From assembly GCA_008015455.1 (NCBI GenBank), contig SSFP01000061.1, forward strand, positions 1 through 15,892: DNA of 15,892 nucleotides, read 5' to 3'. Below are positions 4,297-15,892 of the stretch, piece by piece (within the stretch, counting starts at the first letter, position 1; each line of letters opens with the position of its first letter). The position numbers were made by a program, and so were the translations under genes. The notes beneath the pieces are model-generated. The model did no database searches. It had not been told where the DNA came from and saw nothing but the letters and a program-made list of their open reading frames with translations. The stretch comes from Polynucleobacter sp. Its GTDB lineage: Bacteria; Pseudomonadota; Gammaproteobacteria; Burkholderiales; Burkholderiaceae.

Positions 4297-5127
4297 TTAT
4301 TCATCATTCAACAAACCGCTATCAGCCATGGAACGCCAGTCGTTAGGATTAGCCTGCATAAGAGATGCAAGCTTCATTGCAAGACGCAAGCTGATTTTAT
4401 GTAAGCGATCCAAGTTATCGCCAATGTAATCAAGAATTTCTGATTGCTGAGCACCACTAAGACCAAAGCTATTAAGTAGCCCCTTTTTCACAACCATAAA
4501 ACAAACTTGTAAGTACAAGCTCTCATTAGTACCATCAGAAATCTGAAGGCAGTAGCTACGATCCTTTAAAGCGTCCAGATGTTCTTGCAGTTTGCTTTTT
4601 TTGCGATTGAAGCCGATGTTTGAGATCAGCACTACGCTCCCGTTAAAGTCAAAACCTGATGGCAATCCCATTGACAGCACAGTTGCGCTTGAAGACTCCC
4701 AATTAACGCGACGTGTAGGTTTAGTATCCATCGCCGCTTTTAACAAGTTAATGCCTTCAATCTTGCTAAACACCGAATCGATATCGTCTAGGACTAGCAC
4801 TTCGCCAGTATTGCGATATTGATACAGGTTGCCATACAAACTCAGAGGCGTCATATGTCCAGCGACAACTTTATAGTTATCGACCTGCGAATACTTCTGC
4901 AAATATGACTCGACTGAAAAGGTCTTACCAACACCAGCGGGACCATTAACGATTACGCTGCGATACTGCCCTACTGCGATACCCTGAATATAGCTTTCAA
5001 CATCAGCATATTTCTGCTCAATGCTGCTAAAGTCCATAGTGTCATAGAACGTTGAAAAGCCATCAATAACACCAAAAAAGCCGTTATGAACAGGTGAAAC
5101 ATTTACTGCATTTGTAATATGTGTCAT
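4297..5127 (-). CDS. AAA+/P-loop ATPase (276 aa), family not recognised
   Basis: It has Walker A (NGPAGVGKTFS), Walker B (VLVLDDID), a sensor-1-like VVLISN and a sensor-2-like ALKDRS. The SD GAGAGGAA lies upstream of the ATG at 5127. Confidence 0.85.
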   Translation of the reverse strand: MTHITNAVNVSPVHNGFFGVIDGFSTFYDTMDFSSIEQKYADVESYIQGIAVGQYRSVIVNGPAGVGKTFSVESYLQKYSQVDNYKVVAGHMTPLSLYGNLYQYRNTGEVLVLDDIDSVFSKIEGINLLKAAMDTKPTRRVNWESSSATVLSMGLPSGFDFNGSVVLISNIGFNRKKSKLQEHLDALKDRSYCLQISDGTNESLYLQVCFMVVKKGLLNSFGLSGAQQSEILDYIGDNLDRLHKISLRLAMKLASLMQANPNDWRSMADSGLLNDE

Positions 5128-6839: not shown

Positions 6840-6866
6840 TGAATTCTCCTTTGATTACACATTACC

Positions 6867-6895
6867 TACTATATTTAAGTTAATTGTGTAGTCAA
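6867..6895 (-). promoter_or_regulatory. Putative sigma70 promoter of the small recombinase gene
   Basis: On the minus strand, TTGACT (6895-6890) is followed by a ~17-nt spacer and TATAGT (6872-6867). This lies about 30 nt upstream of the SD. Confidence 0.35.
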
Positions 6896-7057
6896 AGCTG
6901 CCAAATTCCTACCGAAAATAGCCACAAATACATTCAGATTGATGGGTTTATCAACCAAAAAATACTGATATTTTTCTATTTGAATTTCAAATGGTTACAA
7001 GCACTCAACACTTAAGTGTATTTTTATGTTGAGTTCAAAAACTACAATTTTTGTTGT

Positions 7058-7085
7058 ATTTCTGTGGCAGAAAAGCCACAAATTA
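7058..7085. promoter_or_regulatory. Candidate tyrosine-recombinase core site (dyad TGTGGC-N6-GCCACA with extended arms)
   Basis: The site reads ATTTCTGTGGC-agaaaa-GCCACAAATTA. A further half-site, GCCACAAATAC, lies at 6921-6931. The architecture (two inverted arms and a 6-bp spacer) is that of lox/FRT/dif-type sites. Confidence 0.4.
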
Positions 7086-7351
7086 AACACTTAGATCATT
7101 GAGAAATAGATGAAATATATAAGAACTATTAATGAGTGAGCTAAAGCTCACTAGCTCTTCGCTAACGCTCATCGCATTTTTCTTTTTTTATTAATTATGA
7201 TTACCTCTTTCACTAGGGAGCACAAGCCAAGCCCTGTTAAAGGGCTCAACTTATGCTGAACCTTTCACTGAGGTTTTCAACTGATATACACACAACTTGC
7301 TAATGCAAGATAGGTAGGTTTTGCTATCTCCTATTACGTGCCGTCATACGC

Positions 7352-7393
7352 AGCTAATTTACAGTCTATATCAGGAACCTTTGTAAATTAGCT
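7352..7393. repeat. Perfect 12-bp inverted repeat with 18-nt loop
   Basis: The arms are AGCTAATTTACA (7352-7363) and TGTAAATTAGCT (7382-7393). I estimate well under one such repeat would occur by chance in this window. Confidence 0.6.
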
Positions 7394-7820
7394 TGTGGGT
7401 TTGTTTCATTGGCTTTCCCACTCACTTTCAGCCTAGACGAATTATTCAATCATTCGACAATTTAGCCTACATTCACGCATTTTGCTGCGCTACCAACTTA
7501 TACAACATTGCAAACGCTACTGCCACAGAGGGGCGTCGTTTAAAGCATCCAAAACAGCCAGAGTCTTGGGTAGTGCAATGAGGCCAGATAGTAAGAGATC
7601 CGAATTGCATACCGTCACACATCAGAACGGGTTTTGCAGCACTATTACCTTCGGCGTGCCAACCTTTACCTTACTTATATGCTTTTATTTAGCTTGAACA
7701 TAAAAACACCCAAAATTTTTTAGTTTCTGTTCAGGTAGCTAAAAACCGTCATTTTTCGGTTGTCCAGATCGTTTTTCAGATCATATTGTTGTGTTGCCCT
7801 AAATAAAGATGGAGAACACT

Positions 7821-8258: not shown

Positions 8259-8302
8259 ACCCTTCAAACGAGTCAAAATCGCAAGGTTCTGACTCGTCGA
8301 TA

Positions 8303-8327
8303 AGTATTACTTGAAGTAATACATTTT
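8303..8327 (+). terminator. Hairpin plus T-run (intrinsic terminator-like); a member of the recurring hairpin family
   Basis: The sequence is GTATTACTT-G-AAGTAATAC followed by ATTTTT. It is preceded by a second hairpin, CGAGTCA-N14-TGACTCG (8269-8296). Confidence 0.55.
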
Positions 8328-9071: not shown

Positions 9072-9728
9072 ATGCCTAAAACCATTATTTTTGATACCGA
9101 AACAACTGGTAAGAATGAACCCAAAATCATCGAAGCTGCCTGGCTAGAACTTGCTAGCATCAAACCCTTTGAAATTACCGATGGGTTTTGTGAAAGATAT
9201 AACCCAGGCAAGCCTATAGAATTAGGTGCGCTAGCCACACATCACATATTGGATGAAGAATTAGCAGACTGTAAACCTACTTCTGAATTTAAATTACCCA
9301 GCGATACGGAATACATCATTGGTCATAACGTCGATTACGACTGGAATGTATCTGGAAATCCTAATGTCAAAAGGATATGTACATTAGCTTTATCGAGAAA
9401 AGTATGGACAAATCTAGACAGCTACAGTCAAAGTGCACTTCTGTATCACCTAGATCGCGAAAATGCCAGAGAACAGCTTAAGCATGCTCATTCAGCACTA
9501 GCAGACGTCGGCATTTGCGCCGTTATCCTAGAAAACATCTGCCATTCTCTAAATATCGAGTCTATCGAACAACTATGGACTACCAGTGAAGCTGCTCGCA
9601 TTCCAACTGTGATGCCTTTTGGCAAACACAAAGGATTGCCTTTAAGTGAGGTACCCAGTGATTACAAAAATTGGTTATTGGGTACTGGAGATTTAGACTC
9701 CTATTTGCGGAAGGCTTTGGAACTTTAA
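9072..9728 (+). CDS. DEDDh 3'-5' exonuclease (DnaQ-like) with C-terminal DUF3820/QSregVF_b-like motif
   Basis: It has Exo I (IIFDTETTG), Exo II (GHNVDYDW) and Exo III (HSALADV). The C-terminal PFGKHKGLPLSEVPSDYKNWLL matches the remembered PFGK.KG.....P..Y..WL motif. The SD AGAGGG lies upstream. Confidence 0.9.
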   Translation: MPKTIIFDTETTGKNEPKIIEAAWLELASIKPFEITDGFCERYNPGKPIELGALATHHILDEELADCKPTSEFKLPSDTEYIIGHNVDYDWNVSGNPNVKRICTLALSRKVWTNLDSYSQSALLYHLDRENAREQLKHAHSALADVGICAVILENICHSLNIESIEQLWTTSEAARIPTVMPFGKHKGLPLSEVPSDYKNWLLGTGDLDSYLRKALEL

Positions 9729-9740
9729 ATACTTGAGCAA

Positions 9741-10781
9741 TTAGCCTAGGTTGCTTTGAGCAGCCTTAATCATTTTTTTTACCTCCAGGCTCTCGTTAAC
9801 AGAGTGAATTGTAATTTGAGGATTTTGTTTTACAAAAACTCGGAATACTTCATCTGCAAATGCCTGACCAATTGACTCAACACCTTTAAAATCTAAAAGA
9901 ACAGTCTTAAAACGATCTACACGATTTAATATTCGTTTTGCTTGGGAGCGTGAAATAAGCTGCCCACCTTCATATAAGGCTAGCTTAACTGGAACAATCG
10001 TTTTATTAAACGCGTAATCCTCATCTTCCGTACCACTAAAACTATCAAATACTTCACGCAGAGTTCTTTGAGAGTTGAGTGCAATTTTCATGACTACCCG
10101 CGTTCCCTTATGGCTCTTTTCATTGTGAAGCAAGAAGTCCATATCCGAACCATCGGCATGTGTAAAGACCAAGTCTCCAGAAAAAATAAAGAATTCATCA
10201 AAAGCGCGAGATGAAAAGAAGATTCCCTGGCCAGTATGATTGCTTGGATCCGTTGTTAGCTTTCCTTTACTCCACTCTAGTATTGATTCGCGTGGATCCT
10301 GCAGCTCTAATAGCCTTGCTATATGGTTAAAAATACCTTCGCCATTATCAGCAATTGAAATTGAAACAAAATCTGGCGTTCTTTCTACATGGATATAAAC
10401 ATCAGTGCCCTCTGAGTGATCAATCGCATTGTTTAAGATCTCAGTAAAACCATAATGACAAATATTGGCAATTTCTTTAGGCAAACCACTAAAGATTTCA
10501 CTAAAATCACGCGAATAAACCTCAGATTCCTCTAACCCTTTTAACTTAAATAAGCCATCATGAAATCGCTTGACTCCTAACTGATAAACCCGTGCTTTCG
10601 TACTACCACTAGAAGCTAAAAACCCATCCCTAACCAAAGCAGCAAAATGCGCATGAATTGCCTGCCTTGTTAAACCAAACTTCTCCATTGCCACATGAGC
10701 TAAATCAGCCTGATTGGCTTTAATACCATCCACTAAGAATTGACGAATCTCTTGGGAGCGCTTTGTATTGGCGAATTTCAT
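9741..10781 (-). CDS. Fusion protein: N-terminal wHTH + GHKL (HATPase_c, RsbW-like) + C-terminal STAS-like/DUF4325-like domain
   Basis: It has the N-box EILNNAIDHS, G1 box DNGEGI and G2 box TGQGIFFSS. The N-terminus is MarR/wHTH-like (FGLTRQAIHAHFAALVRDGFL). The C-terminus, RSQAKRIL...FKTVLLDFKGVESIGQAFADEVFRVF, resembles STAS-like DUF4325 (from memory). Confidence 0.82.
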   Translation of the reverse strand: MKFANTKRSQEIRQFLVDGIKANQADLAHVAMEKFGLTRQAIHAHFAALVRDGFLASSGSTKARVYQLGVKRFHDGLFKLKGLEESEVYSRDFSEIFSGLPKEIANICHYGFTEILNNAIDHSEGTDVYIHVERTPDFVSISIADNGEGIFNHIARLLELQDPRESILEWSKGKLTTDPSNHTGQGIFFSSRAFDEFFIFSGDLVFTHADGSDMDFLLHNEKSHKGTRVVMKIALNSQRTLREVFDSFSGTEDEDYAFNKTIVPVKLALYEGGQLISRSQAKRILNRVDRFKTVLLDFKGVESIGQAFADEVFRVFVKQNPQITIHSVNESLEVKKMIKAAQSNLG

Positions 10782-10790
10782 GTGAATTTT

Positions 10791-10850
10791 TTGTAAAGTT
10801 TTATAAGATTATTGTAAAGTTTTATAAGATTATTGTAAAGTTTTCATCCT
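10791..10850. repeat. 21-bp tandem repeat (2 perfect units plus 1 degenerate) overlapping the GHKL gene promoter
   Basis: TTGTAAAGTTTTATAAGATTA occurs at 10791-10811 and 10812-10832. A third unit begins at 10833 and diverges after 12 nt. On the coding strand, TTGTCA (10861-10856)-N18-TACAAT (10837-10832) places the -10 inside the repeats. Confidence 0.9.
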
Positions 10851-10881: not shown

Positions 10882-12234
10882 TCAGACATACTCTATAACC
10901 CTTTTAGCCAGCTTCTTACTAGGGTAATTTTCAGCAGCTTTACTATCCGCCTCGATGAGCTTTCTCGTATTAGTACCGCGTAATTGCTCAATAGCTTGGA
11001 TAACCTGTAAATGGCTATAGTGCTTTTCTATCATCAAAACACTCGTACCCATTTGCTTGGCCAGTGTATGAATAGGCACACTATCGTGAGTCAGCGAAAG
11101 CGTTGCATAGGTGTGACGTAGACTGTAGAAAACACGTTTTTGATTTGTCTTTGGATCTATCAGTAAGCCATGATCAGATAAGAAGTTATCAAACATATGG
11201 TTGAGGACGTCACTTAAATCTCTACCCTCTTTAGTTCTAAAAATATAGTCATCATTGGTAGGCTTAATTAACTCAGCTAGAGGATCTTTAATTGAACTCT
11301 TAACACCATAGTTTCTCAGTGCGATTCGCTCTAGCACTCTGATGCTAGGTAATCGTCCAATAATTTGTCTTTGACCAGTTTTACCTTTAACTGTCATCTC
11401 ACAGCTACGATTAAGACTGTGAACTTCAATAGCTTCACCATCTTCATCTAGCTGATCTGTCACTGTACTAATAGGATTCATCATGAAACGAATTTGCTTC
11501 CATTTCATATCCAATAGTTCAATACCAGGCCTAGCACCAGTATCCAAAAGCATTTCTACATAGTCACGCAGTATTTCTCTACGCTCTCTGATATCTCTGG
11601 TCTTGCCAGCGTCAATGTAAGGGGTCAGATTCCTTAATAAAGCCCTGACTTCATGTAATTCAAAGGCAGGTCTACGTTGAGATTCTTTGGTTTTACCGTC
11701 CAACTTAGGTCGATTGGATTCTGTTAAGTAACCCCTAACAATGGCCTCATCAAATACTCTATTAAATGCGGCATTTTGAGTCTTACGATGGCTATTAGAC
11801 ATAATCGAACCAAACTTAGCTTCACGATCACTGTAGTAATCGTTTAGAGCATCGTAATCAATATTAGTGATCAATCTTTGCCCTAGACTAGGCATGAAAT
11901 GATCTTTGATAATTCGGATGTAATCTTTATAGATAACCTTACCTAGGCCACCACGCATATCGCGTTCCATGCGATCAATAGCCAGCATGGCGATATCTTT
12001 AAAGCGTTTTGTGACCACAGGGATACCTGAACGCTTACGTATTTCAGCTTCTACCAATAGCTCTTTGGCTTTTGCTATGGCCAAATCAAATTTAGTTTCT
12101 TTGGTTGTGGCACGTATCCAGCGATTATCAATTTTGTAGCGACATTGCCATACCTGACTATGCTCACGCTGATACAGGGTTAGATTACGGTGGATTAATT
12201 GATGTGTAGTTTCTTTCTTAGTTGACATACACAT
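10882..12234 (-). CDS. Tyrosine integrase (phage/genomic-island type, 450 aa)
   Basis: The N-terminus is arm-binding-like (W.CRYKI.NRW.R.TT.). The catalytic blocks are LLDTGARPGIE, KGKTGQR, YSLRHTYAT and MIEKHYSH. An alternative start lies at 12228 (MSTKK). Confidence 0.93.
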   Translation of the reverse strand: MCMSTKKETTHQLIHRNLTLYQREHSQVWQCRYKIDNRWIRATTKETKFDLAIAKAKELLVEAEIRKRSGIPVVTKRFKDIAMLAIDRMERDMRGGLGKVIYKDYIRIIKDHFMPSLGQRLITNIDYDALNDYYSDREAKFGSIMSNSHRKTQNAAFNRVFDEAIVRGYLTESNRPKLDGKTKESQRRPAFELHEVRALLRNLTPYIDAGKTRDIRERREILRDYVEMLLDTGARPGIELLDMKWKQIRFMMNPISTVTDQLDEDGEAIEVHSLNRSCEMTVKGKTGQRQIIGRLPSIRVLERIALRNYGVKSSIKDPLAELIKPTNDDYIFRTKEGRDLSDVLNHMFDNFLSDHGLLIDPKTNQKRVFYSLRHTYATLSLTHDSVPIHTLAKQMGTSVLMIEKHYSHLQVIQAIEQLRGTNTRKLIEADSKAAENYPSKKLAKRVIEYV

Positions 12235-12357: not shown

Positions 12358-12384
12358 GTGAGCGTTGCTTCAAGTAACACTTAG
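12358..12384 (-). repeat. Stop-codon-anchored hairpin element, copy 2
   Basis: The minus strand reads TAA-GTGTTACTT-G-AAGCAACGC-TCAC, followed by a C-rich, G-poor tract (TCCCCACACTTCTTCCACAAATCCTCCAATACCACCCCC). It starts at the stop of the 208-aa gene. Confidence 0.7.
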
Positions 12385-13007
12385 CCCGAACCTTTTTTAA
12401 CAAACAACTCCAACTCATAGAGTTTTTGTATAGCCAACTGACTAAGATCATTTCTGCCAGATACCTGAACTATCTGGATAAAAGCCAGCAATGCAAACAT
12501 CTGCCCCATTCTTAAAACCTCAATAATCTCTTCATCCAAGTAGTTTGGATCTATGGCATTACCTTTAACCCTTCTAGCAATCTGATGAATACCCCCATGG
12601 GTATAACTATTCATAGCAGCCCAAGCTTGTTTCTTTAGATCTGAGAGAGTTCCACTCTTGAAAGCAGGTAATCCTTCAACTTTCGAAAGAATCAAATCAA
12701 AGTTTCTAGCATATTCATCTCGTTCAAAAGCAGCCAATTCCTCATCAGAAGCACAATCTTTTAACCATACAGCCCTAACAAATGTTTCAAAGATTGAACG
12801 CACTAGAGCAAAGCCAGATCCATAGGCTCGCTTCTCGATTGCGCCAGTAATACCCGTGAAATAGTCGAGAACAACATCAAAAGCTGAGATTGCCAGTAAA
12901 AGTCTTCTGGTTTTAGGTAGCGGCACCCCATCCAAATGAACAAAGATCCATGTATGCAGATCCCGAGATTCTTGAAGAGTTTGTTCTAGCGTTGGATTTG
13001 TACTCAT
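12381..13007 (-). CDS. Hypothetical all-helical protein (208 aa)
   Basis: This is a clean ORF with a helix-prone sequence. No Rx4-6H HEPN motif was found and I cannot name a family. It has no clear SD and lies 72 nt downstream of the MBL gene. Confidence 0.65.
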   Translation of the reverse strand: MSTNPTLEQTLQESRDLHTWIFVHLDGVPLPKTRRLLLAISAFDVVLDYFTGITGAIEKRAYGSGFALVRSIFETFVRAVWLKDCASDEELAAFERDEYARNFDLILSKVEGLPAFKSGTLSDLKKQAWAAMNSYTHGGIHQIARRVKGNAIDPNYLDEEIIEVLRMGQMFALLAFIQIVQVSGRNDLSQLAIQKLYELELFVKKGSG

Positions 13008-13057
13008 ATCATCAGTTTAGGCTCAAACAACCTAATTGGATGAATTACTGGGAGGGG

Positions 13058-13084
13058 TGAGCGTTACTTAAAGTAACGCTTAAG
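13058..13084 (-). repeat. Stop-codon-anchored hairpin element, copy 1
   Basis: The minus strand reads TAA-GCGTTACTT-T-AAGTAACGC-TCAC-CCCTCCC. It starts at the stop of the MBL gene, in the same register as copy 2. Confidence 0.7.
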
Positions 13085-14087
13085 ACTTCGAAATACTCCA
13101 AATACCAAAATAACCTTGGTCATTAACCACCAACGATCCATCTTTGCTACTGTCTAAGGCAAATTTTTCATTCTCCACAAAAACATCTATCTGACTATCT
13201 GTGATCTCTAGAACTATATTGCCAGCCTGATTACTCGTGATTTTTGTGAGCCCTCTTCTGGTCCATTGCCCATAATCGATATACTCACTTGGAGCGCACC
13301 CAATAACGGTCAATTTAGGCTTTATAAAATCTAAAAAATCATAGCTTCTATCTGAATCTCTACCATGATGTGGCGCCAATAAAACCGCAATATCTTGAAC
13401 ATCATTTAGATGGTTTTCTTTTATATATTCAAAAGTTTTGTCATGCGCATCGCCACATATCAAAATATTGCCGCCGATACTTTTGTAAAGAAGAACATAA
13501 GACCCATCATTGATGTCATCACTTTTATTAGCATCATTTAGAAGATTGCTATTTGGCGCAAGAATATACAAGCCATCCCCTCCACTTGTGCCATCTTCAG
13601 CTTGGTTTGCATATTTAAATTTTGAATCTGCTAATGGAGTAACAACTTTCACATTCCCCTCTTTGCCAGCGATAACATTTTCATACCTATCCCAATCCTC
13701 TTCTAGGAATGGGCCTCCTTCAAAAGACGGTTTTTCTCGACGTAAGGTTGAATCCCAAAAATTTACTACGGTTACTTCGTCGAGCAGACGGTTAAAGCCA
13801 TCTAGATGATCCATATCAGGATGAGTAAGAATAAATCTGAAAATATTGCCAATATCTAAAGAAAGAAAATAATCAACTGAATTTGAGTTGCAATTGCACA
13901 TTCCATAATTGCCACTTACTTCTGATCCTTTGAGGGAAGGCGGCAAATAAACTGACTCAGAATAGGTCTCAATATTGCCATCACATATATCAATCATGGA
14001 AACATGACCACTTGCATGTTTGATAATTGTGCAGTCCCCTGGGTGTACATTTACAAAATGTACTTGGGCTTTATATTGATTACTCAT
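13080..14087 (-). CDS. Metallo-beta-lactamase-fold hydrolase, ComEC/Rec2 C-terminal-domain type (335 aa)
   Basis: The motifs are VNVHPGDCTII..., SMIDICDG, LTHPDMDHLDGF (the H-x-D-x-D-H variant typical of ComEC-type MBLs), ICGDAHD and LLAPHHGRDSD (PHHGS-like). The C-terminal ...ITSNQAGNIVLEITD fits the remembered rTd..G.i pattern. Confidence 0.88.
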   Translation of the reverse strand: MSNQYKAQVHFVNVHPGDCTIIKHASGHVSMIDICDGNIETYSESVYLPPSLKGSEVSGNYGMCNCNSNSVDYFLSLDIGNIFRFILTHPDMDHLDGFNRLLDEVTVVNFWDSTLRREKPSFEGGPFLEEDWDRYENVIAGKEGNVKVVTPLADSKFKYANQAEDGTSGGDGLYILAPNSNLLNDANKSDDINDGSYVLLYKSIGGNILICGDAHDKTFEYIKENHLNDVQDIAVLLAPHHGRDSDRSYDFLDFIKPKLTVIGCAPSEYIDYGQWTRRGLTKITSNQAGNIVLEITDSQIDVFVENEKFALDSSKDGSLVVNDQGYFGIWSISKS

Positions 14088-14544
14088 GAGGTTTTGATGA
14101 TCTTGATTTTTCGATGCCCCAAATAGATAAAGCGATATCCTGTAATTTCTCTAGAAATTTGTCTACGTTTAAACCAGCAATTAAGGCAAATGCAAAAAAT
14201 CCAAAGTCGCTAGAGCTTCCAGTAGAAGTCGCCTCTAGAGCTATTAGTCCAGCCTTTAAAAATACAAAAGATACTCCACCACAAATAGTGCTAACGAAGG
14301 GACGAATGAAATACCAGGGAATCCATTTTGAATTCCAGTCTCCTCTAACGCTTGCACTTAAATAGATTCCCCTTAAGCAATAAATGACGCCACCAATACC
14401 TCCAAATAGGGAGCTCATCAAAGCAATCTTTAGATTCGCAGAGGCTGCAAAAAATCCAGATATATCAGCAAAATACAGGCCGAAAATACATGCAATTAGA
14501 TACGCAACTAGGTAAAAGAATATAAAAGGTATTGAAACCATCAT
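14080..14544 (-). CDS. Small integral membrane protein, about 4 TM helices (154 aa)
   Basis: There are four hydrophobic segments: IPFIFFYLVAYLIACIFGLYF; LMSSLFGGIGGVIYCL; FIRPFVSTICGGVSFVFL; FGFFAFALIAGL. The stop overlaps the MBL start by 8 nt (ATGAGTAA). Confidence 0.75.
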   Translation of the reverse strand: MMVSIPFIFFYLVAYLIACIFGLYFADISGFFAASANLKIALMSSLFGGIGGVIYCLRGIYLSASVRGDWNSKWIPWYFIRPFVSTICGGVSFVFLKAGLIALEATSTGSSSDFGFFAFALIAGLNVDKFLEKLQDIALSIWGIEKSRSSKPHE

Positions 14545-14647
14545 GGCTATGCTTTATTAAGTTAACTCAAAACTCAATATTGCCATGAATAACCTTACAA
14601 ATTAATAAAAATAACAACCCGAAGGTTGGTATTTTGTACGACCTGAG

Positions 14648-14688
14648 ACATACTTTACAGTTTATACCGGACACATACTTTACAGTTT
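14648..14688 (+). repeat. Two direct copies of ACATACTTTACAGTTT in the IS left end
   Basis: The 16-nt perfect copies lie at 14648-14663 and 14673-14688, with a 25-bp period. They sit just upstream of the transposase SD AAGGAGGA. Confidence 0.75.
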
Positions 14689-14710: not shown

Positions 14711-15892
14711 ATGCCATGGAATGAAAGTACGAAGATGGATGAAAAGCTCCGATTTGTGTCTCGTTTTTTGGATGGTGAGAAGATTTCTAGATTATGCGAA
14801 GAATTTGGCATATCCAGGGTCACTGGTCACAAGATCATCGATCGGTATAAAGAGTCTGGTTTAGAGGGCTTCAATGACCGCAGCCGTAAACCTTCCAGAC
14901 AAGCTAATCGACTACCGTTTCAGGTTGAACAATTAATCGTTAATGTGAAGAAAGAGTTCCCCAACTGGGGAGCTCCAAAGATCCGTGAACGGATTCATAC
15001 ACACTACCCAGAAATTGCTTTGCCGGCTAAAAGTACAGTCCATGCCGTCTTAGATCGCCATGGCTTAGTGCTTAAGAAGCGTCGGCGACGATATCCTAAA
15101 TTAGAGGGTACAGCTCTATCGGATAGTCGATCTCCTAATGCCTTGTGGTGTACAGATTACAAGGGTGAGTTCATGATGGGTAACAAACAATACTGTTATC
15201 CACTCACCGTCACCGATTACACAACGCGCTTCCTCATTTGCTGTGAAGGCTTGGAGAGCACCCGTGAGGCTCAGGCCTTTACGGTGTTTGAGCGGCTCTT
15301 TAAAGAGTATGGTTTACCGAACAATATTCGTTCTGATAATGGCGTTCCCTTTGCCAGTCCCAATGCCCTTTATGGTTTAAGTAGCTTATCGGTGTGGTGG
15401 TTGCGTTTGGGGATTGGCATTGAACGGATCAAGCCTGGGAACCCCCAACAAAATGGTCGGCATGAGCGCATGCATTTAACGCTTAAACAGGCCACCACCA
15501 AACCACCTGGAATGAACCTTTTACAACAGCAAGATAAGTTTGAAGACTTCATCCATGAATATAACTTTGAGCGACCTCATCAAGCGTTAGAGATGAAAAG
15601 GCCTGGGGATTTATATCAACCATCCAACAGAAAATATGATGGATTACCAGATGTGGCTTACCCCTTCCATGACAAAACTGTCACCGTCACTTCATGCGGA
15701 AGAATTTGTTTGGGGAGTAAAAAAATCCACTTCAGCACTGTCTTTGCAGGACAAGATGTTGGCGTCCGACAAGTAGAAGATGACGTTTGGTTGGTGAGTT
15801 TTATGGATTATGATTTAGCTTACTTTGATATGGAGACTCGAAGAGTGAGTGCTTTAGAGAACCCATTTGGTCCCAAAGTAATTGGAATGTGA
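14711..15892 (+). CDS. IS481-family DDE transposase (393 aa)
   Basis: It has an N-terminal HTH (ISRLCEEFGISRVTGHKII.RY). The rve-type DDE triad sits in WCTDYKGEF, IRSDNGVPF and NPQQNGRHERMH. A strong SD lies 7 nt upstream, and the stop is the last base of the window. Confidence 0.93.
   Translation: MPWNESTKMDEKLRFVSRFLDGEKISRLCEEFGISRVTGHKIIDRYKESGLEGFNDRSRKPSRQANRLPFQVEQLIVNVKKEFPNWGAPKIRERIHTHYPEIALPAKSTVHAVLDRHGLVLKKRRRRYPKLEGTALSDSRSPNALWCTDYKGEFMMGNKQYCYPLTVTDYTTRFLICCEGLESTREAQAFTVFERLFKEYGLPNNIRSDNGVPFASPNALYGLSSLSVWWLRLGIGIERIKPGNPQQNGRHERMHLTLKQATTKPPGMNLLQQQDKFEDFIHEYNFERPHQALEMKRPGDLYQPSNRKYDGLPDVAYPFHDKTVTVTSCGRICLGSKKIHFSTVFAGQDVGVRQVEDDVWLVSFMDYDLAYFDMETRRVSALENPFGPKVIGM

What the first reader, a model, noticed from the sequence alone, without database searches (positions are those of the whole stretch)
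12381..14544. Coupled 4-TM protein + ComEC-type MBL hydrolase (+ helical 208-aa protein): candidate undescribed defence/conflict module
**Seen in the sequence.** A 154-aa protein with four hydrophobic helices ends inside the start codon context of a 335-aa MBL-fold protein. The overlap is 8 nt (ATGAGTAA), which implies translational coupling and fixed stoichiometry. A 208-aa helical protein follows after 72 nt. All three genes sit between an integrase-bounded element and an IS481 copy.

**Established knowledge.** The HxDxDH and PHHG motif variants are those of the ComEC/Rec2 C-terminal MBL domain, which is thought to be a DNase.

**Inference.** A stand-alone ComEC-type nuclease domain welded to a small membrane protein, with no competence channel or OB domain, is not a pairing I recognise. 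The layout resembles known two-gene anti-phage systems that pair a small TM protein with a soluble effector (for example Kiwa KwaA/KwaB, or hydrolase+TM pairs from P2/P4 hotspots). The 208-aa protein could be a sensor, an immunity factor or unrelated.
Basis: partly seen in the sequence, partly recalled or inferred. Interest (0 to 1): 0.72.

Follow-up and report, generated by a model that had tools for sequence, protein, structure and literature searches.

The report
Membrane protein plus ComEC-like hydrolase pair
A small four-helix membrane protein and a ComEC-like metal-dependent hydrolase form a tightly coupled gene pair that recurs across bacteria next to anti-phage genes; it is a variant of an already catalogued but untested defence candidate, not a new kind of system.

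Summary
On the minus strand a 154-aa 4-TM gene (14080-14544) overlaps a 335-aa MBL-fold gene (13080-14087) by 8 nt. A 208-aa gene follows 72 nt later. An integrase and an IS481 transposase flank the three genes.

- The MBL is ComEC-type and its catalytic motifs are intact.
- TM+MBL pairing is widespread and patchy, and junctions are always tight.
- Neighbours are often restriction-modification, DISARM-like or ubiquitin-like (E2-E1-JAB) defence genes.

The pairing is not undescribed. PADLOC lists a small-TM + MBL pair as untested candidate PDC-M48, and the window's MBL hits PDC-M48B (E=3e-33). The window's TM protein belongs to a different family that no PDC-M48A model detects.

That TM family also follows E2-E1-JAB in operons resembling the validated 6A-MBL system. 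It is fused to a trypsin-like protease in one protein.

The 208-aa protein is DUF6988 (PADLOC PDC-S52). It was absent from all 165 related loci, so it is a separate neighbour.

Most likely mechanism (inferred): the membrane protein anchors or controls a hydrolase effector. No experiment on this pair was found.

The parts
14080..14544 (-). Gene for a 154-aa four-helix inner-membrane protein ('TM family 1'). Predicted topology is N-in/C-in, with a conserved cytoplasmic loop and a C-terminal amphipathic helix.
   Evidence: ORF. At least 438 homologous clusters and 1852 representative clusters at E<=1e-3. AF2 pLDDT 89.6 with helices 5-28, 36-67, 72-102, 114-125 and 127-142. Nine K/R residues lie in loop 2 plus the C-terminal tail, against one in loops 1 and 3 (read from the sequence). 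There are 25 invariant columns, including G51, G52, Y55, C56, R58, W74, W77, R81, P82, N126 and D128. No Pfam, NCBIfam, PADLOC or PHROG hit and no significant PDB fold match.
13080..14087 (-). Gene for a 335-aa cytoplasmic MBL-fold metallo-hydrolase of the ComEC/Pce clade, with intact metal-binding motifs (H89, D91, D93, H94, D213, H215, H240, H241). It is the probable effector.
   Evidence: PADLOC PDC-M48B model PDLC04673, E=3.1e-33. NCBIfam ComEC_Rec2 at 5.6e-6, far below its cut-off. PDB sequence hits to ComEC MBL domains. AF2 pLDDT 90.9. Foldseek hits 9ic4 (ComEC beta-lactamase-like domain) at E=1.1e-14 and Pce/CbpE at 1e-13. The motif residues are invariant or nearly invariant in 100 homologues.
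14080..14087 (-). 8-nt overlap (ATGAGTAA) between the TM stop codon and the MBL start codon, consistent with translational coupling.
   Evidence: Sequence. In 30 related genome loci the same junction ranges from -38 to +13 nt, and three loci have the same 8-nt overlap.
14605..14628 (-). Terminator-like hairpin plus T-run about 70 nt upstream of the TM start codon. It would insulate the pair from transcription coming from the IS481 side.
   Evidence: CAACCTTCGGGTTG followed by TTATTTTTAT on the minus strand. It is a consensus match only.
13058..13082 (-). Palindrome that includes the MBL stop codon (TAAGCGTTACTTTAAGTAACGCTCA) and forms a 9-bp hairpin without a U-run. It is a genome-local element, not a feature of the module elsewhere.
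   Evidence: Six matches, which are three palindromic sites counted on both strands, against 0.08 expected by chance. Folding energy -10.9 kcal/mol, z=-3.2. Absent from all 167 related loci.
12381..13007 (-). Neighbouring 208-aa DUF6988 gene. It is an independent single-gene defence candidate (PADLOC PDC-S52), not a component of the TM-MBL module.
   Evidence: Pfam DUF6988 at 1.5e-27, 96.9 bits against a cut-off of 27. PADLOC PDC-S52 at 7.5e-27. No homologue in 165 TM- or MBL-anchored loci. DUF6988 is listed as newly implicated in defence by DefensePredictor (PMC13092281).
14711..15892 (+). Context: IS481-family transposase immediately upstream of the pair. The assembly ends here.
   Evidence: Pfam rve, rve_3, HTH_32 and LZ_Tnp_IS481. 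Three other short contigs carrying the identical TM protein also break 43-123 nt upstream of it.
10882..12234 (-). Context: 450-aa tyrosine integrase downstream of the DUF6988 gene.
   Evidence: PHROG_1 integrase at 6.2e-30. No Pfam hit at E<=0.01.

Best explanation
Genes 14544-13080 (minus strand) are a self-contained two-gene accessory module of the anti-phage-candidate kind. They encode a four-helix inner-membrane protein translationally coupled to a cytoplasmic, catalytically intact ComEC/Pce-clade MBL phosphodiesterase.

The module is a variant of PADLOC's untested candidate PDC-M48 (small TM protein + MBL). It uses a TM partner that is not detectably homologous to PDC-M48A.

Proposed mechanism (inferred, not shown): the TM protein oligomerises in the membrane. 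Through its conserved cytoplasmic loop and C-terminal amphipathic helix it holds or controls the hydrolase. An infection-linked membrane event, such as DNA entry or envelope perturbation, would release or activate the hydrolase. The hydrolase would then cleave nucleic acid, either incoming DNA or indiscriminately (abortive infection).

The 208-aa DUF6988 gene next door is a separate candidate system.

What is shown: gene structure, fold, intact active-site motifs, conserved adjacency, modular partner exchange and defence-gene neighbourhoods. What is inferred: the defence function itself, which protein senses and which kills, and the substrate.
For: 1. Conserved pairing from the MBL side. 67 of 80 MBL-anchored genome loci have a small multi-TM gene directly adjacent.

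2. Conserved pairing from the TM side. 79 of 108 informative TM-family-1 loci have an MBL gene directly downstream, and 35 are minimal pairs like the window. Junctions range from -38 to +13 nt.

3. Patchy, horizontally spread distribution. 523 relatives were found among 185,579 species representatives, across many bacterial phyla, CPR and two archaeal MAGs. Relatives also occur on plasmids.

4. Defence neighbourhoods. Immediately upstream genes include DrmD (1.6e-209, L007), a Type IIG RM enzyme (E=0, L043), Type I HsdR (1.6e-230, L041) and E2-E1-JAB (L051). A DUF1156/HmaB-like methylase lies downstream in 7 loci. The pooled flanks are rich in ResIII, methylases, MmeI and PIN.

5. Catalogue match. 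The MBL hits PDC-M48B at 3.1e-33, and PDC-M48A is a small TM protein. PDC systems were derived from genes embedded in BREX, DISARM and Type I RM systems (10.1101/2024.01.29.577857).

6. Effector logic. TM family 1 pairs with four PDC-M48B MBL subfamilies and with a Zn phospholipase C (L136). It is fused to a trypsin-like protease in P0259. All of these are executioner-type hydrolases, so the TM protein is more likely the constant sensor or anchor.

7. Tandem-duplicated TM domains (P0314, P0351, P0367) suggest oligomerisation.

8. Fold and active site. ComEC MBL domain 9ic4 is the top Foldseek hit (1.1e-14), and the metal-binding residues are invariant.

9. Relatives of this MBL type act in validated systems. 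6A-MBL is cited as validated in PMC13276650 and 10.1101/2025.09.30.679545, and HamMAB requires its active MBL domain (PMC13069673).
Against: - No experiment on this pair, or on PDC-M48, was found. The PDC systems are explicitly untested.
- The window's TM protein matches no defence model.
- In the window itself no known defence system is adjacent, only mobile-element genes and the DUF6988 candidate. The closest genome relative (L001, Polaromonas) sits beside ordinary-looking genes.
- The MBL is acidic (pI 4.64), which is unremarkable for a hydrolase but not suggestive of strong non-specific DNA binding.
- Pce/CbpE, a phosphorylcholine esterase, is nearly as good a structural match as ComEC, so the substrate is open.
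- The MBL also swaps among four unrelated TM families. The argument about which partner is constant therefore cuts both ways.
- The non-MBL partners rest on single examples.
Confidence: 0.6

Rival explanations
1. The roles are reversed. The MBL protein is the sensor or regulator, for example recognising or processing foreign nucleic acid or a nucleotide signal. The 4-TM protein is the killing effector, forming a pore that depolarises the membrane (abortive infection), as TM effectors do in CBASS, Pycsar and type III CRISPR.
For: One MBL family pairs with at least four unrelated small multi-TM families, and these were swapped repeatedly on the MBL tree. In known systems the swapped part is often the effector. 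Tandem-duplicated TM domains suggest an oligomeric, channel-like assembly. TM family 2 has a weak Csx27 hit (2e-5).
Against: TM family 1 also pairs with or is fused to other executioner-type enzymes: a phospholipase C and a trypsin-like protease. These are unlikely sensors. Related MBLs serve as effector domains in Lamassu (LmuA), Avs1a and HamMAB. The TM fold has no match to any known pore former.
Confidence: 0.15
2. The module is a defence or conflict module, but the MBL is not a nuclease. It is a membrane-proximal phosphodiesterase acting on lipid or envelope phosphodiesters, as the phosphorylcholine esterase Pce does. The TM protein positions it at the membrane.
For: Pce/CbpE is structurally almost as close as ComEC (1.4e-13 against 1.1e-14) and is also found by sequence (1e-3). 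One TM-family-1 locus has a Zn-dependent phospholipase C in the MBL's place, 3 nt after the TM gene (L136). The protein is acidic. A phage 'tail protein' PHROG contains a related MBL domain (phrog_7043, 3.5e-15).
Against: The best sequence and fold matches are ComEC nuclease domains. The HPDxDH and PHHG motifs are identical in type to those of 9ic4. The nearest defence-associated relatives (LmuA, Avs1a, DRT-associated MBL) are treated as nuclease-type effectors. The phospholipase C example is a single locus.
Confidence: 0.15
3. The pair is not a defence system. It is a selfish addiction (toxin-antitoxin-like) pair or an accessory function of mobile elements, and it merely hitch-hikes in variable islands.
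For: In the window it sits among integrase and IS481 genes with no known defence system beside it. It occurs on plasmids. There is no experimental evidence of protection.
Against: It is repeatedly embedded between components of DISARM/Hma-like, Type I and Type IIG RM systems and 6a ubiquitin-like systems, on the same strand and often overlapping them. It is rare on phage and viral contigs: 1 weak hit among phage records and 5 TM hits in IMG/VR.
Confidence: 0.08
4. The three genes (TM, MBL and the 208-aa DUF6988 protein) form one three-component system, as the first reader suggested might be the case.
For: All three are on the same strand with a 72-nt spacer. A similar palindrome follows both the MBL and the DUF6988 stop codons. 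The same arrangement appears in another sample's contig (L168).
Against: No DUF6988 homologue occurs in any of 165 loci anchored on MBL or TM relatives. PADLOC treats the family as a single-gene candidate (PDC-S52). In the validated DS-15 system a remote DUF6988 protein works with an AAA ATPase, not an MBL.
Confidence: 0.02

Closest known systems
PADLOC phage-defence candidate PDC-M48 (Payne et al. 2024, bioRxiv 10.1101/2024.01.29.577857; cassette CAS_00157)
   Same: Both are two-gene cassettes of a small multi-pass TM protein followed by an MBL-fold hydrolase, found embedded in or next to RM, DISARM and BREX-type systems. The window's MBL hits PDC-M48B (PDLC04673, 3.1e-33). TM family 1 elsewhere pairs with MBLs that match PDC-M48B models over their full length (5.9e-168 and 6.3e-100).
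   Different: No PDC-M48A model detects the window's TM protein. hhalign finds no homology to the M48A-type family (probability below 1%), so PADLOC's two-component rule would not call it. PDC-M48 is itself untested.
6A-MBL ubiquitin-like defence system (operon type 6a of Iyer, Burroughs and Aravind 2006, PMC1779556; reported as validated in P. aeruginosa by van den Berg et al. 2024; NCBIfam NF058524)
   Same: It uses a specialised MBL-fold protein. The window's TM family follows the E2-E1-JAB gene in at least 10 loci with the order MBL, E2-E1-JAB, TM. In some genomes a 6a module sits directly upstream of a TM-MBL pair of the window's type (L051, and CP101281).
   Different: The window has no E2-E1-JAB gene. 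Its MBL scores 25.5 bits against a cut-off of 220 for NF058524. The original 6a description lists two genes and no TM protein. I could not read the 2024 paper.
ComEC/Rec2 competence channel, C-terminal MBL nuclease domain (PDB 9ic4, 9vcb)
   Same: It is the closest solved fold (E=1.1e-14, TMt 0.77). It shares the HPDxDH and PHHG motif variants and a membrane association.
   Different: ComEC is one roughly 800-aa polypeptide with an OB domain and a multi-TM competence domain. Here the MBL is a separate soluble protein. The 154-aa partner has no similarity to the competence domain. TIGR00361 scores 24.8 bits against a cut-off of 190. Neighbouring genes are defence or mobile-element genes, not competence genes.
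DefensePredictor DS-42 (E. coli; ComA/ComEC-like MBL plus two small proteins; validated, PMC13092281)
   Same: It is a validated anti-phage operon built around a ComEC-like MBL hydrolase with small partner proteins.
   Different: Its partners are soluble, not TM proteins. Its MBL has the canonical HxHxDH motif (SHFHDDH) and shows no pairwise similarity to the window's MBL (BLASTP E=1.2).
MBL effector modules of Lamassu (LmuA hydrolase type), Avs1a, DRT-associated MBL and HamMAB
   Same: They are distant sequence relatives (LmuA 5.4e-10, RTasMBL 1.2e-4, Avs1a 0.057). They show that this MBL clade is used as a defence effector.
   Different: Those systems couple the MBL to SMC-like, STAND, reverse-transcriptase or helicase sensors. 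None uses a small TM partner.

Membership tests
PADLOC PDC-M48 | Component B: an MBL-fold protein matching one of the PDC-M48B models (PDLC04673-04677) | tested here: met
   PDLC04673 at E=3.1e-33 and 113 bits, covering residues 81-316 of the protein and positions 51-277 of the 296-position model. Weaker hits to 04674-04676.
PADLOC PDC-M48 | Component A: a small TM protein matching one of the PDC-M48A models (PDLC04670-04672) | tested here: not met
   No PDC-M48A hit at E<=1; the only hit is PycTM at 0.34. hhalign of TM family 1 against the M48A-type family gives a probability of 0.3%. By contrast, the L065 TM protein hits PDC-M48A at 1.7e-55.
PADLOC PDC-M48 | The two genes are adjacent on the same strand | tested here: met
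   8-nt overlap, TM gene first.
ComEC/Rec2 (TIGR00361) | A single polypeptide with an OB domain, a multi-TM competence domain and a C-terminal MBL, scoring above the curated cut-off | tested here: not met
   24.8 bits against a cut-off of 190, and only the MBL part aligns. The TM protein has no Pfam Competence domain hit.
ComEC-type MBL domain (fold and motif level) | MBL alpha-beta/beta-alpha fold with HxDxDH and PHHG metal-binding motifs | tested here: met
   Foldseek hits 9ic4 at E=1.1e-14. The profile aligns THPDMDH with THPDADH and APHHGR with VPHHGS. The motif residues are invariant in 100 homologues. Pfam Lactamase_B itself gives no hit.
6A-MBL system (Iyer 6a; NCBIfam NF058524) | An adjacent gene for an E2-E1-JAB triple-module protein | tested here: not met
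   No ThiF, Prok-E2 or JAB hit among the window's ORFs that were scanned. The sequence upstream of the pair is interrupted by IS481 and the contig end. A terminator-like hairpin upstream of the TM gene argues for an independent unit.
6A-MBL system (Iyer 6a; NCBIfam NF058524) | An MBL protein reaching the curated score of the 6A-MBL_enzyme model | tested here: not met
   25.5 bits against a cut-off of 220.
DUF6988 / PADLOC PDC-S52 (the 208-aa neighbour) | A match to Pfam PF22491 above the gathering score, and to the PADLOC model | tested here: met
   96.9 bits against 27. PDC-S52 at E=7.5e-27, covering residues 7-190 of the protein and positions 3-191 of the 211-position model.
Kiwa (KwaA/KwaB) and other named TM + soluble-protein defence pairs in PADLOC | A match of either protein to that system's models | tested here: not met
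   The PADLOC scan at E<=1 returned only PDC-M48B, LmuA and RTasMBL for the MBL, and PycTM (0.34) for the TM protein.
Anti-phage defence system (functional class) | Experimentally shown protection against phage | not testable with these tools
   The library held no paper testing PDC-M48 or this pair.

The most novel reading that the evidence does not exclude
TM family 1 may be a previously unrecognised, widely distributed membrane sensor or adaptor module. It has about 1850 representative clusters and no Pfam, NCBIfam or PADLOC model. It couples to interchangeable hydrolase effectors: several MBL subfamilies, a phospholipase C and a fused trypsin-like protease. It may also be an unannotated third component of many 6a (E2-E1-JAB + MBL) ubiquitin-like defence operons. 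On this reading the window's pair is the minimal form of a membrane-triggered immune system that detects phage entry at the inner membrane.
Probability: 0.22. Interest if true: 0.7.

Novelty: new variant of a known kind. Interest (0 to 1): 0.42.

Why it matters
If the pair protects against phage, it would validate a whole catalogued-but-untested class (PDC-M48). It would also add a TM partner family that current defence-finding tools miss, so such loci go uncalled. The link between this TM family and 6a ubiquitin-like operons suggests that the validated 6A-MBL system may have a membrane component. The pair also offers a simple two-gene model for how a membrane protein controls a ComEC-like hydrolase. 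If it does not protect, it still marks a very common accessory gene pair whose function is unknown.

Tried and rejected
1. A three-gene system including the 208-aa protein was rejected: 0 of 165 related loci carry a DUF6988 gene.

2. A competence (ComEC) function was rejected. There is no competence or OB domain, scores are far below the cut-off, and the neighbours are defence or mobile-element genes.

3. Identity with the validated DS-42 system was rejected. BLASTP gives E=1.2 and DS-42's partners are soluble.

4. Remote homology of the window's TM protein to PDC-M48A or the other partner TM families was not found (hhalign probability below 1%). Foldseek against the PDB gave no significant match (best E=0.35).

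5. I considered whether the shared palindrome after the MBL and DUF6988 stop codons marks integron-like cassettes (attC). I did not pursue this. There are only three short copies, no integron integrase, and no copy in 167 related loci.

6. My first MBL profile, built from homologues at least 50% identical, was too narrow. It suggested that only 19 of 75 TM loci had an MBL partner. Clustering and a broader profile corrected this to 79 of 108.

7. The L100 locus first looked like a TM + LHH-nuclease pair. It actually has an MBL directly upstream of the TM gene, so I do not count it as a clean exception.

8. Looking for longer contigs carrying the identical TM protein, to see beyond IS481, gave only contigs of 1.5-1.8 kb.

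9. The paper that validated 6A-MBL (van den Berg et al. 2024) is not held. Its gene composition is taken from Iyer et al. 2006 and from citing papers.

10. The Rfam gathering scan of the window found nothing.
Full report
**1. The observation**

The window's minus strand carries three ORFs at exactly the stated coordinates: 14080..14544 (154 aa), 13080..14087 (335 aa) and 12381..13007 (208 aa).
- The first two share the 8 nt ATGAGTAA (14080-14087). The MBL start codon lies inside the last codons of the TM gene.
- The third gene follows after 72 nt.
- The flanks are a 450-aa integrase (10882..12234; PHROG_1 E=6e-30) and an IS481-type transposase (14711..15892).
- The TM protein is 100% identical to a protein of a Polynucleobacter sp. 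MAG.

**2. What the proteins are**

*The 335-aa protein.*
- It has no Pfam hit, but it matches PADLOC PDC-M48B at E=3.1e-33. It weakly matches ComEC_Rec2, the 6A-MBL enzyme and Avs1a models of NCBIfam, all far below their cut-offs.
- A profile of 22 homologues finds solved ComEC MBL domains as best hits. It aligns THPDMDH and APHHGR with THPDADH and VPHHGS of 9ic4.
- The AlphaFold2 model (pLDDT 90.9) has the ComEC beta-lactamase-like domain 9ic4 as top Foldseek hit (E=1.1e-14, TMt 0.77). The phosphorylcholine esterase Pce/CbpE follows closely at 1.4e-13.
- The metal-binding residues are invariant or nearly invariant in 100 homologues, so the enzyme is probably active.
- It has no signal peptide (read from the sequence) and is acidic (pI 4.64).

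*The 154-aa protein.*
- It has no hit in Pfam, NCBIfam, PADLOC or PHROGs.
- Its model (pLDDT 89.6) shows four long helices and a C-terminal helix. No PDB fold match is significant.
- K/R residues concentrate in loop 2 and the C-terminal tail (9 against 1). This predicts an N-in/C-in topology, with the conserved W-rich loop and the amphipathic tail on the cytoplasmic side, where the MBL is. The topology is inferred from the sequence.
- The family is large and well conserved: at least 438 clusters at 90% identity, 1852 representatives at E<=1e-3, and 25 invariant columns.

*The 208-aa protein.* It is Pfam DUF6988 (1.5e-27) and PADLOC PDC-S52 (7.5e-27).

**3. Do the genes belong together?**

*Starting from the MBL.*
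- A scan of one genome per GTDB species found 523 relatives among 185,579 species. They are spread over many bacterial phyla, CPR and two archaeal MAGs.
- In the 80 best loci, 30 have a homologue of the window's TM protein directly upstream on the same strand.
- A further 37 have a small multi-TM protein of one of three other families adjacent (24, 7 and 6 loci).
- The four TM families show no detectable homology to the window's family by hhalign.
- On a quick neighbour-joining tree of the MBLs, families 1 and 2 are interleaved, so partners were swapped repeatedly.
- The TM-to-MBL junction in the 30 family-1 loci ranges from -38 to +13 nt. Three loci share the window's 8-nt overlap.

*Starting from the TM protein* (80 metagenome and 5 viral loci).
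- A narrow MBL profile at first suggested that few loci had an MBL partner.
- Clustering showed that 47 of 57 downstream proteins form one MBL cluster. Its members match PDC-M48B models over their full length (5.9e-168 and 6.3e-100).
- With a broad profile, and pooling these loci with the 30 family-1 genome loci, 79 of 108 informative TM-family-1 loci have an MBL directly downstream. Of these, 35 are minimal pairs with at least 2.5 kb of visible upstream sequence and no extra component.

*The DUF6988 gene.* No homologue occurs in any of the 165 loci. It is a neighbour, not a component.

**4. Genomic context**

The pooled flanks of the 30 family-1 genome loci are rich in defence genes: DrmD, HmaA/HmaB, mad2, MmeI-type enzymes, ResIII, DNA methylases, PIN, ThiF and JAB.

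Specific genes immediately upstream:

| Locus | Upstream gene | E-value |
|---|---|---|
| L007 | DrmD (overlaps the TM gene) | 1.6e-209 |
| L043 | Type IIG restriction-modification enzyme | 0 |
| L041 | Type I HsdR | 1.6e-230 |
| L051 | E2-E1-JAB | 9.4e-15 |

- Seven loci have a 1110-aa DUF1156/HmaB-like methylase directly downstream.
- Annotated plasmids show the same picture. Burkholderia CP101281 has the order metallohydrolase, small protein, JAB protein, 236-aa protein, TM, MBL. Runella pRUNSL03 has a cluster of three MBLs beside an MvaI/BcnI endonuclease.
- The pair is rare on phage records (one weak hit) and on IMG/VR contigs (five TM hits).
- In the window itself the neighbours are mobile-element genes and the DUF6988 candidate.
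- A terminator-like hairpin with a T-run lies about 70 nt upstream of the TM start codon. This suggests the pair is its own unit rather than the remnant of a longer operon cut by IS481.

**5. Relation to what is known**

- **PDC-M48.** PADLOC's PDC systems are 145 untested candidates derived from genes embedded in BREX, DISARM and Type I RM systems (10.1101/2024.01.29.577857). PDC-M48 is cassette CAS_00157, made of two protein families. Its A component is a small TM protein: the L065 TM protein hits PDC-M48A at 1.7e-55. The window's MBL meets the B criterion and its TM protein fails the A criterion. It is a variant with a different partner.
- **6a / 6A-MBL.** The window's TM family also follows E2-E1-JAB genes in at least 10 loci with the order MBL, E2-E1-JAB, TM. 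This is the 6a operon of Iyer et al. 2006 (PMC1779556) plus a TM gene those authors did not list. 6A-MBL is cited as a validated P. aeruginosa defence. I could not read the primary paper.
- **DS-42.** This validated E. coli operon has a ComEC-like MBL, but its partners are soluble and its MBL shows no pairwise similarity to the window's.
- **DUF6988.** DefensePredictor lists it among domains newly implicated in defence. There a remote member acts with an AAA ATPase.

**6. Mechanism**

*Shown:* the fold, the intact active-site motifs, conserved tight adjacency, modular exchange on both sides, and defence-gene neighbourhoods.

*Inferred:* everything functional.

I favour the hydrolase as effector and the TM protein as membrane anchor or sensor, for three reasons.
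- TM family 1 couples to several executioner-type hydrolases: four MBL subfamilies, a Zn phospholipase C 3 nt downstream in L136, and a fused trypsin-like protease in P0259.
- Related MBLs are effector modules in Lamassu, Avs1a and HamMAB.
- Tandem-duplicated TM domains suggest that the TM protein oligomerises.

The reverse assignment (TM pore as effector) is kept as a rival, because the MBL also swaps among four TM families. A non-nucleic-acid substrate is a second rival, because Pce is structurally nearly as close as ComEC and a phospholipase C can replace the MBL. Both non-MBL partners rest on single examples.

**7. Verdict**

This is a real and well-conserved two-gene module. It is a new variant of a known but untested candidate kind, not a categorically new system. 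The third gene is unrelated. Interest is moderate. The most useful new points are:
- current defence models miss this TM family;
- it links PDC-M48-type pairs to 6a ubiquitin-like operons.

Noticed in passing
window 8301-8325, 12359-12383, 13058-13082: There are three copies of a roughly 20-nt palindrome (TAAGYRTTACTTNAAGYAAC), against 0.08 matches expected by chance. Two of them include the stop codons of the DUF6988 and MBL genes, and these two share a 48-nt flank at 75% identity. They form hairpins without a U-run. They are absent from 167 related loci, so they look like a genome-local repeat, terminator or binding site.
   Followed up: partly
window 10788-10844: Three direct repeats of TT(T/A)TTGTAAAGTTTT, spaced 21 nt apart, lie between the start of the HATPase_c/DUF4325 gene and the end of the integrase gene. 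They look like an iteron or a regulator-binding array.
   Followed up: no
window 9741-10781 (-) and 9072-9728 (+): A 346-aa protein with a histidine-kinase-like ATPase domain and a STAS-like DUF4325 domain has no PADLOC hit. It lies tail-to-tail with a 218-aa DEDDh (ExoX-like) exonuclease that carries a QSregVF_b-like tail. Both are inside the mobile island and their role is unknown.
   Followed up: no
window 6840-7808: About 970 nt have no ORF of 100 aa or more (only two overlapping ORFs of 62 and 71 aa) and no Rfam family at gathering score. The stretch lies between a short (188-aa) tyrosine recombinase gene and a phage-like gene (phrog_31551).
   Followed up: partly
window 14641-14688: Two 23-nt direct repeats (ACCNGANACATACTTTACAGTTT, 91% identical, 25 nt apart) lie just upstream of the IS481 transposase gene. 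They are probably part of the IS end or its regulatory region.
   Followed up: no
window 10882-12234: The 450-aa integrase gives no Pfam hit at E<=0.01, yet it matches PHROG_1 (integrase) at 6e-30. It is a divergent tyrosine recombinase.
   Followed up: partly
L085, L093, L112, L124, L161 (e.g. L085:552-4456): These operons have the order MBL (370-410 aa), E2-E1-JAB fusion (745-793 aa), then the window's TM family. This is a 6a-type ubiquitin-like operon with a third, membrane gene that the original description does not list.
   Followed up: partly
P0259 (476 aa); P0314, P0351, P0367: P0259 is a fusion of the TM-family-1 domain to a trypsin-like serine protease (His, Asp and GDSG motifs). The other three proteins carry two tandem copies of the TM domain.
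   Followed up: partly
L136:1390-2820: A TM-family-1 gene is followed 3 nt later by a Zn-dependent phospholipase C (Pfam Zn_dep_PLPC, 2e-20) in the place of the MBL.
   Followed up: partly
L021:5316-5987: A member of the second partner TM family (about 220-270 aa) has a weak match to Csx27, the membrane protein associated with type VI-B CRISPR (E=2e-5).
   Followed up: no
window 13080-14087 (protein residues 85-270): The MBL matches phrog_7043, annotated 'tail protein' (1077 positions), at 3.5e-15. Some phage tail proteins therefore carry a related MBL domain.
   Followed up: no
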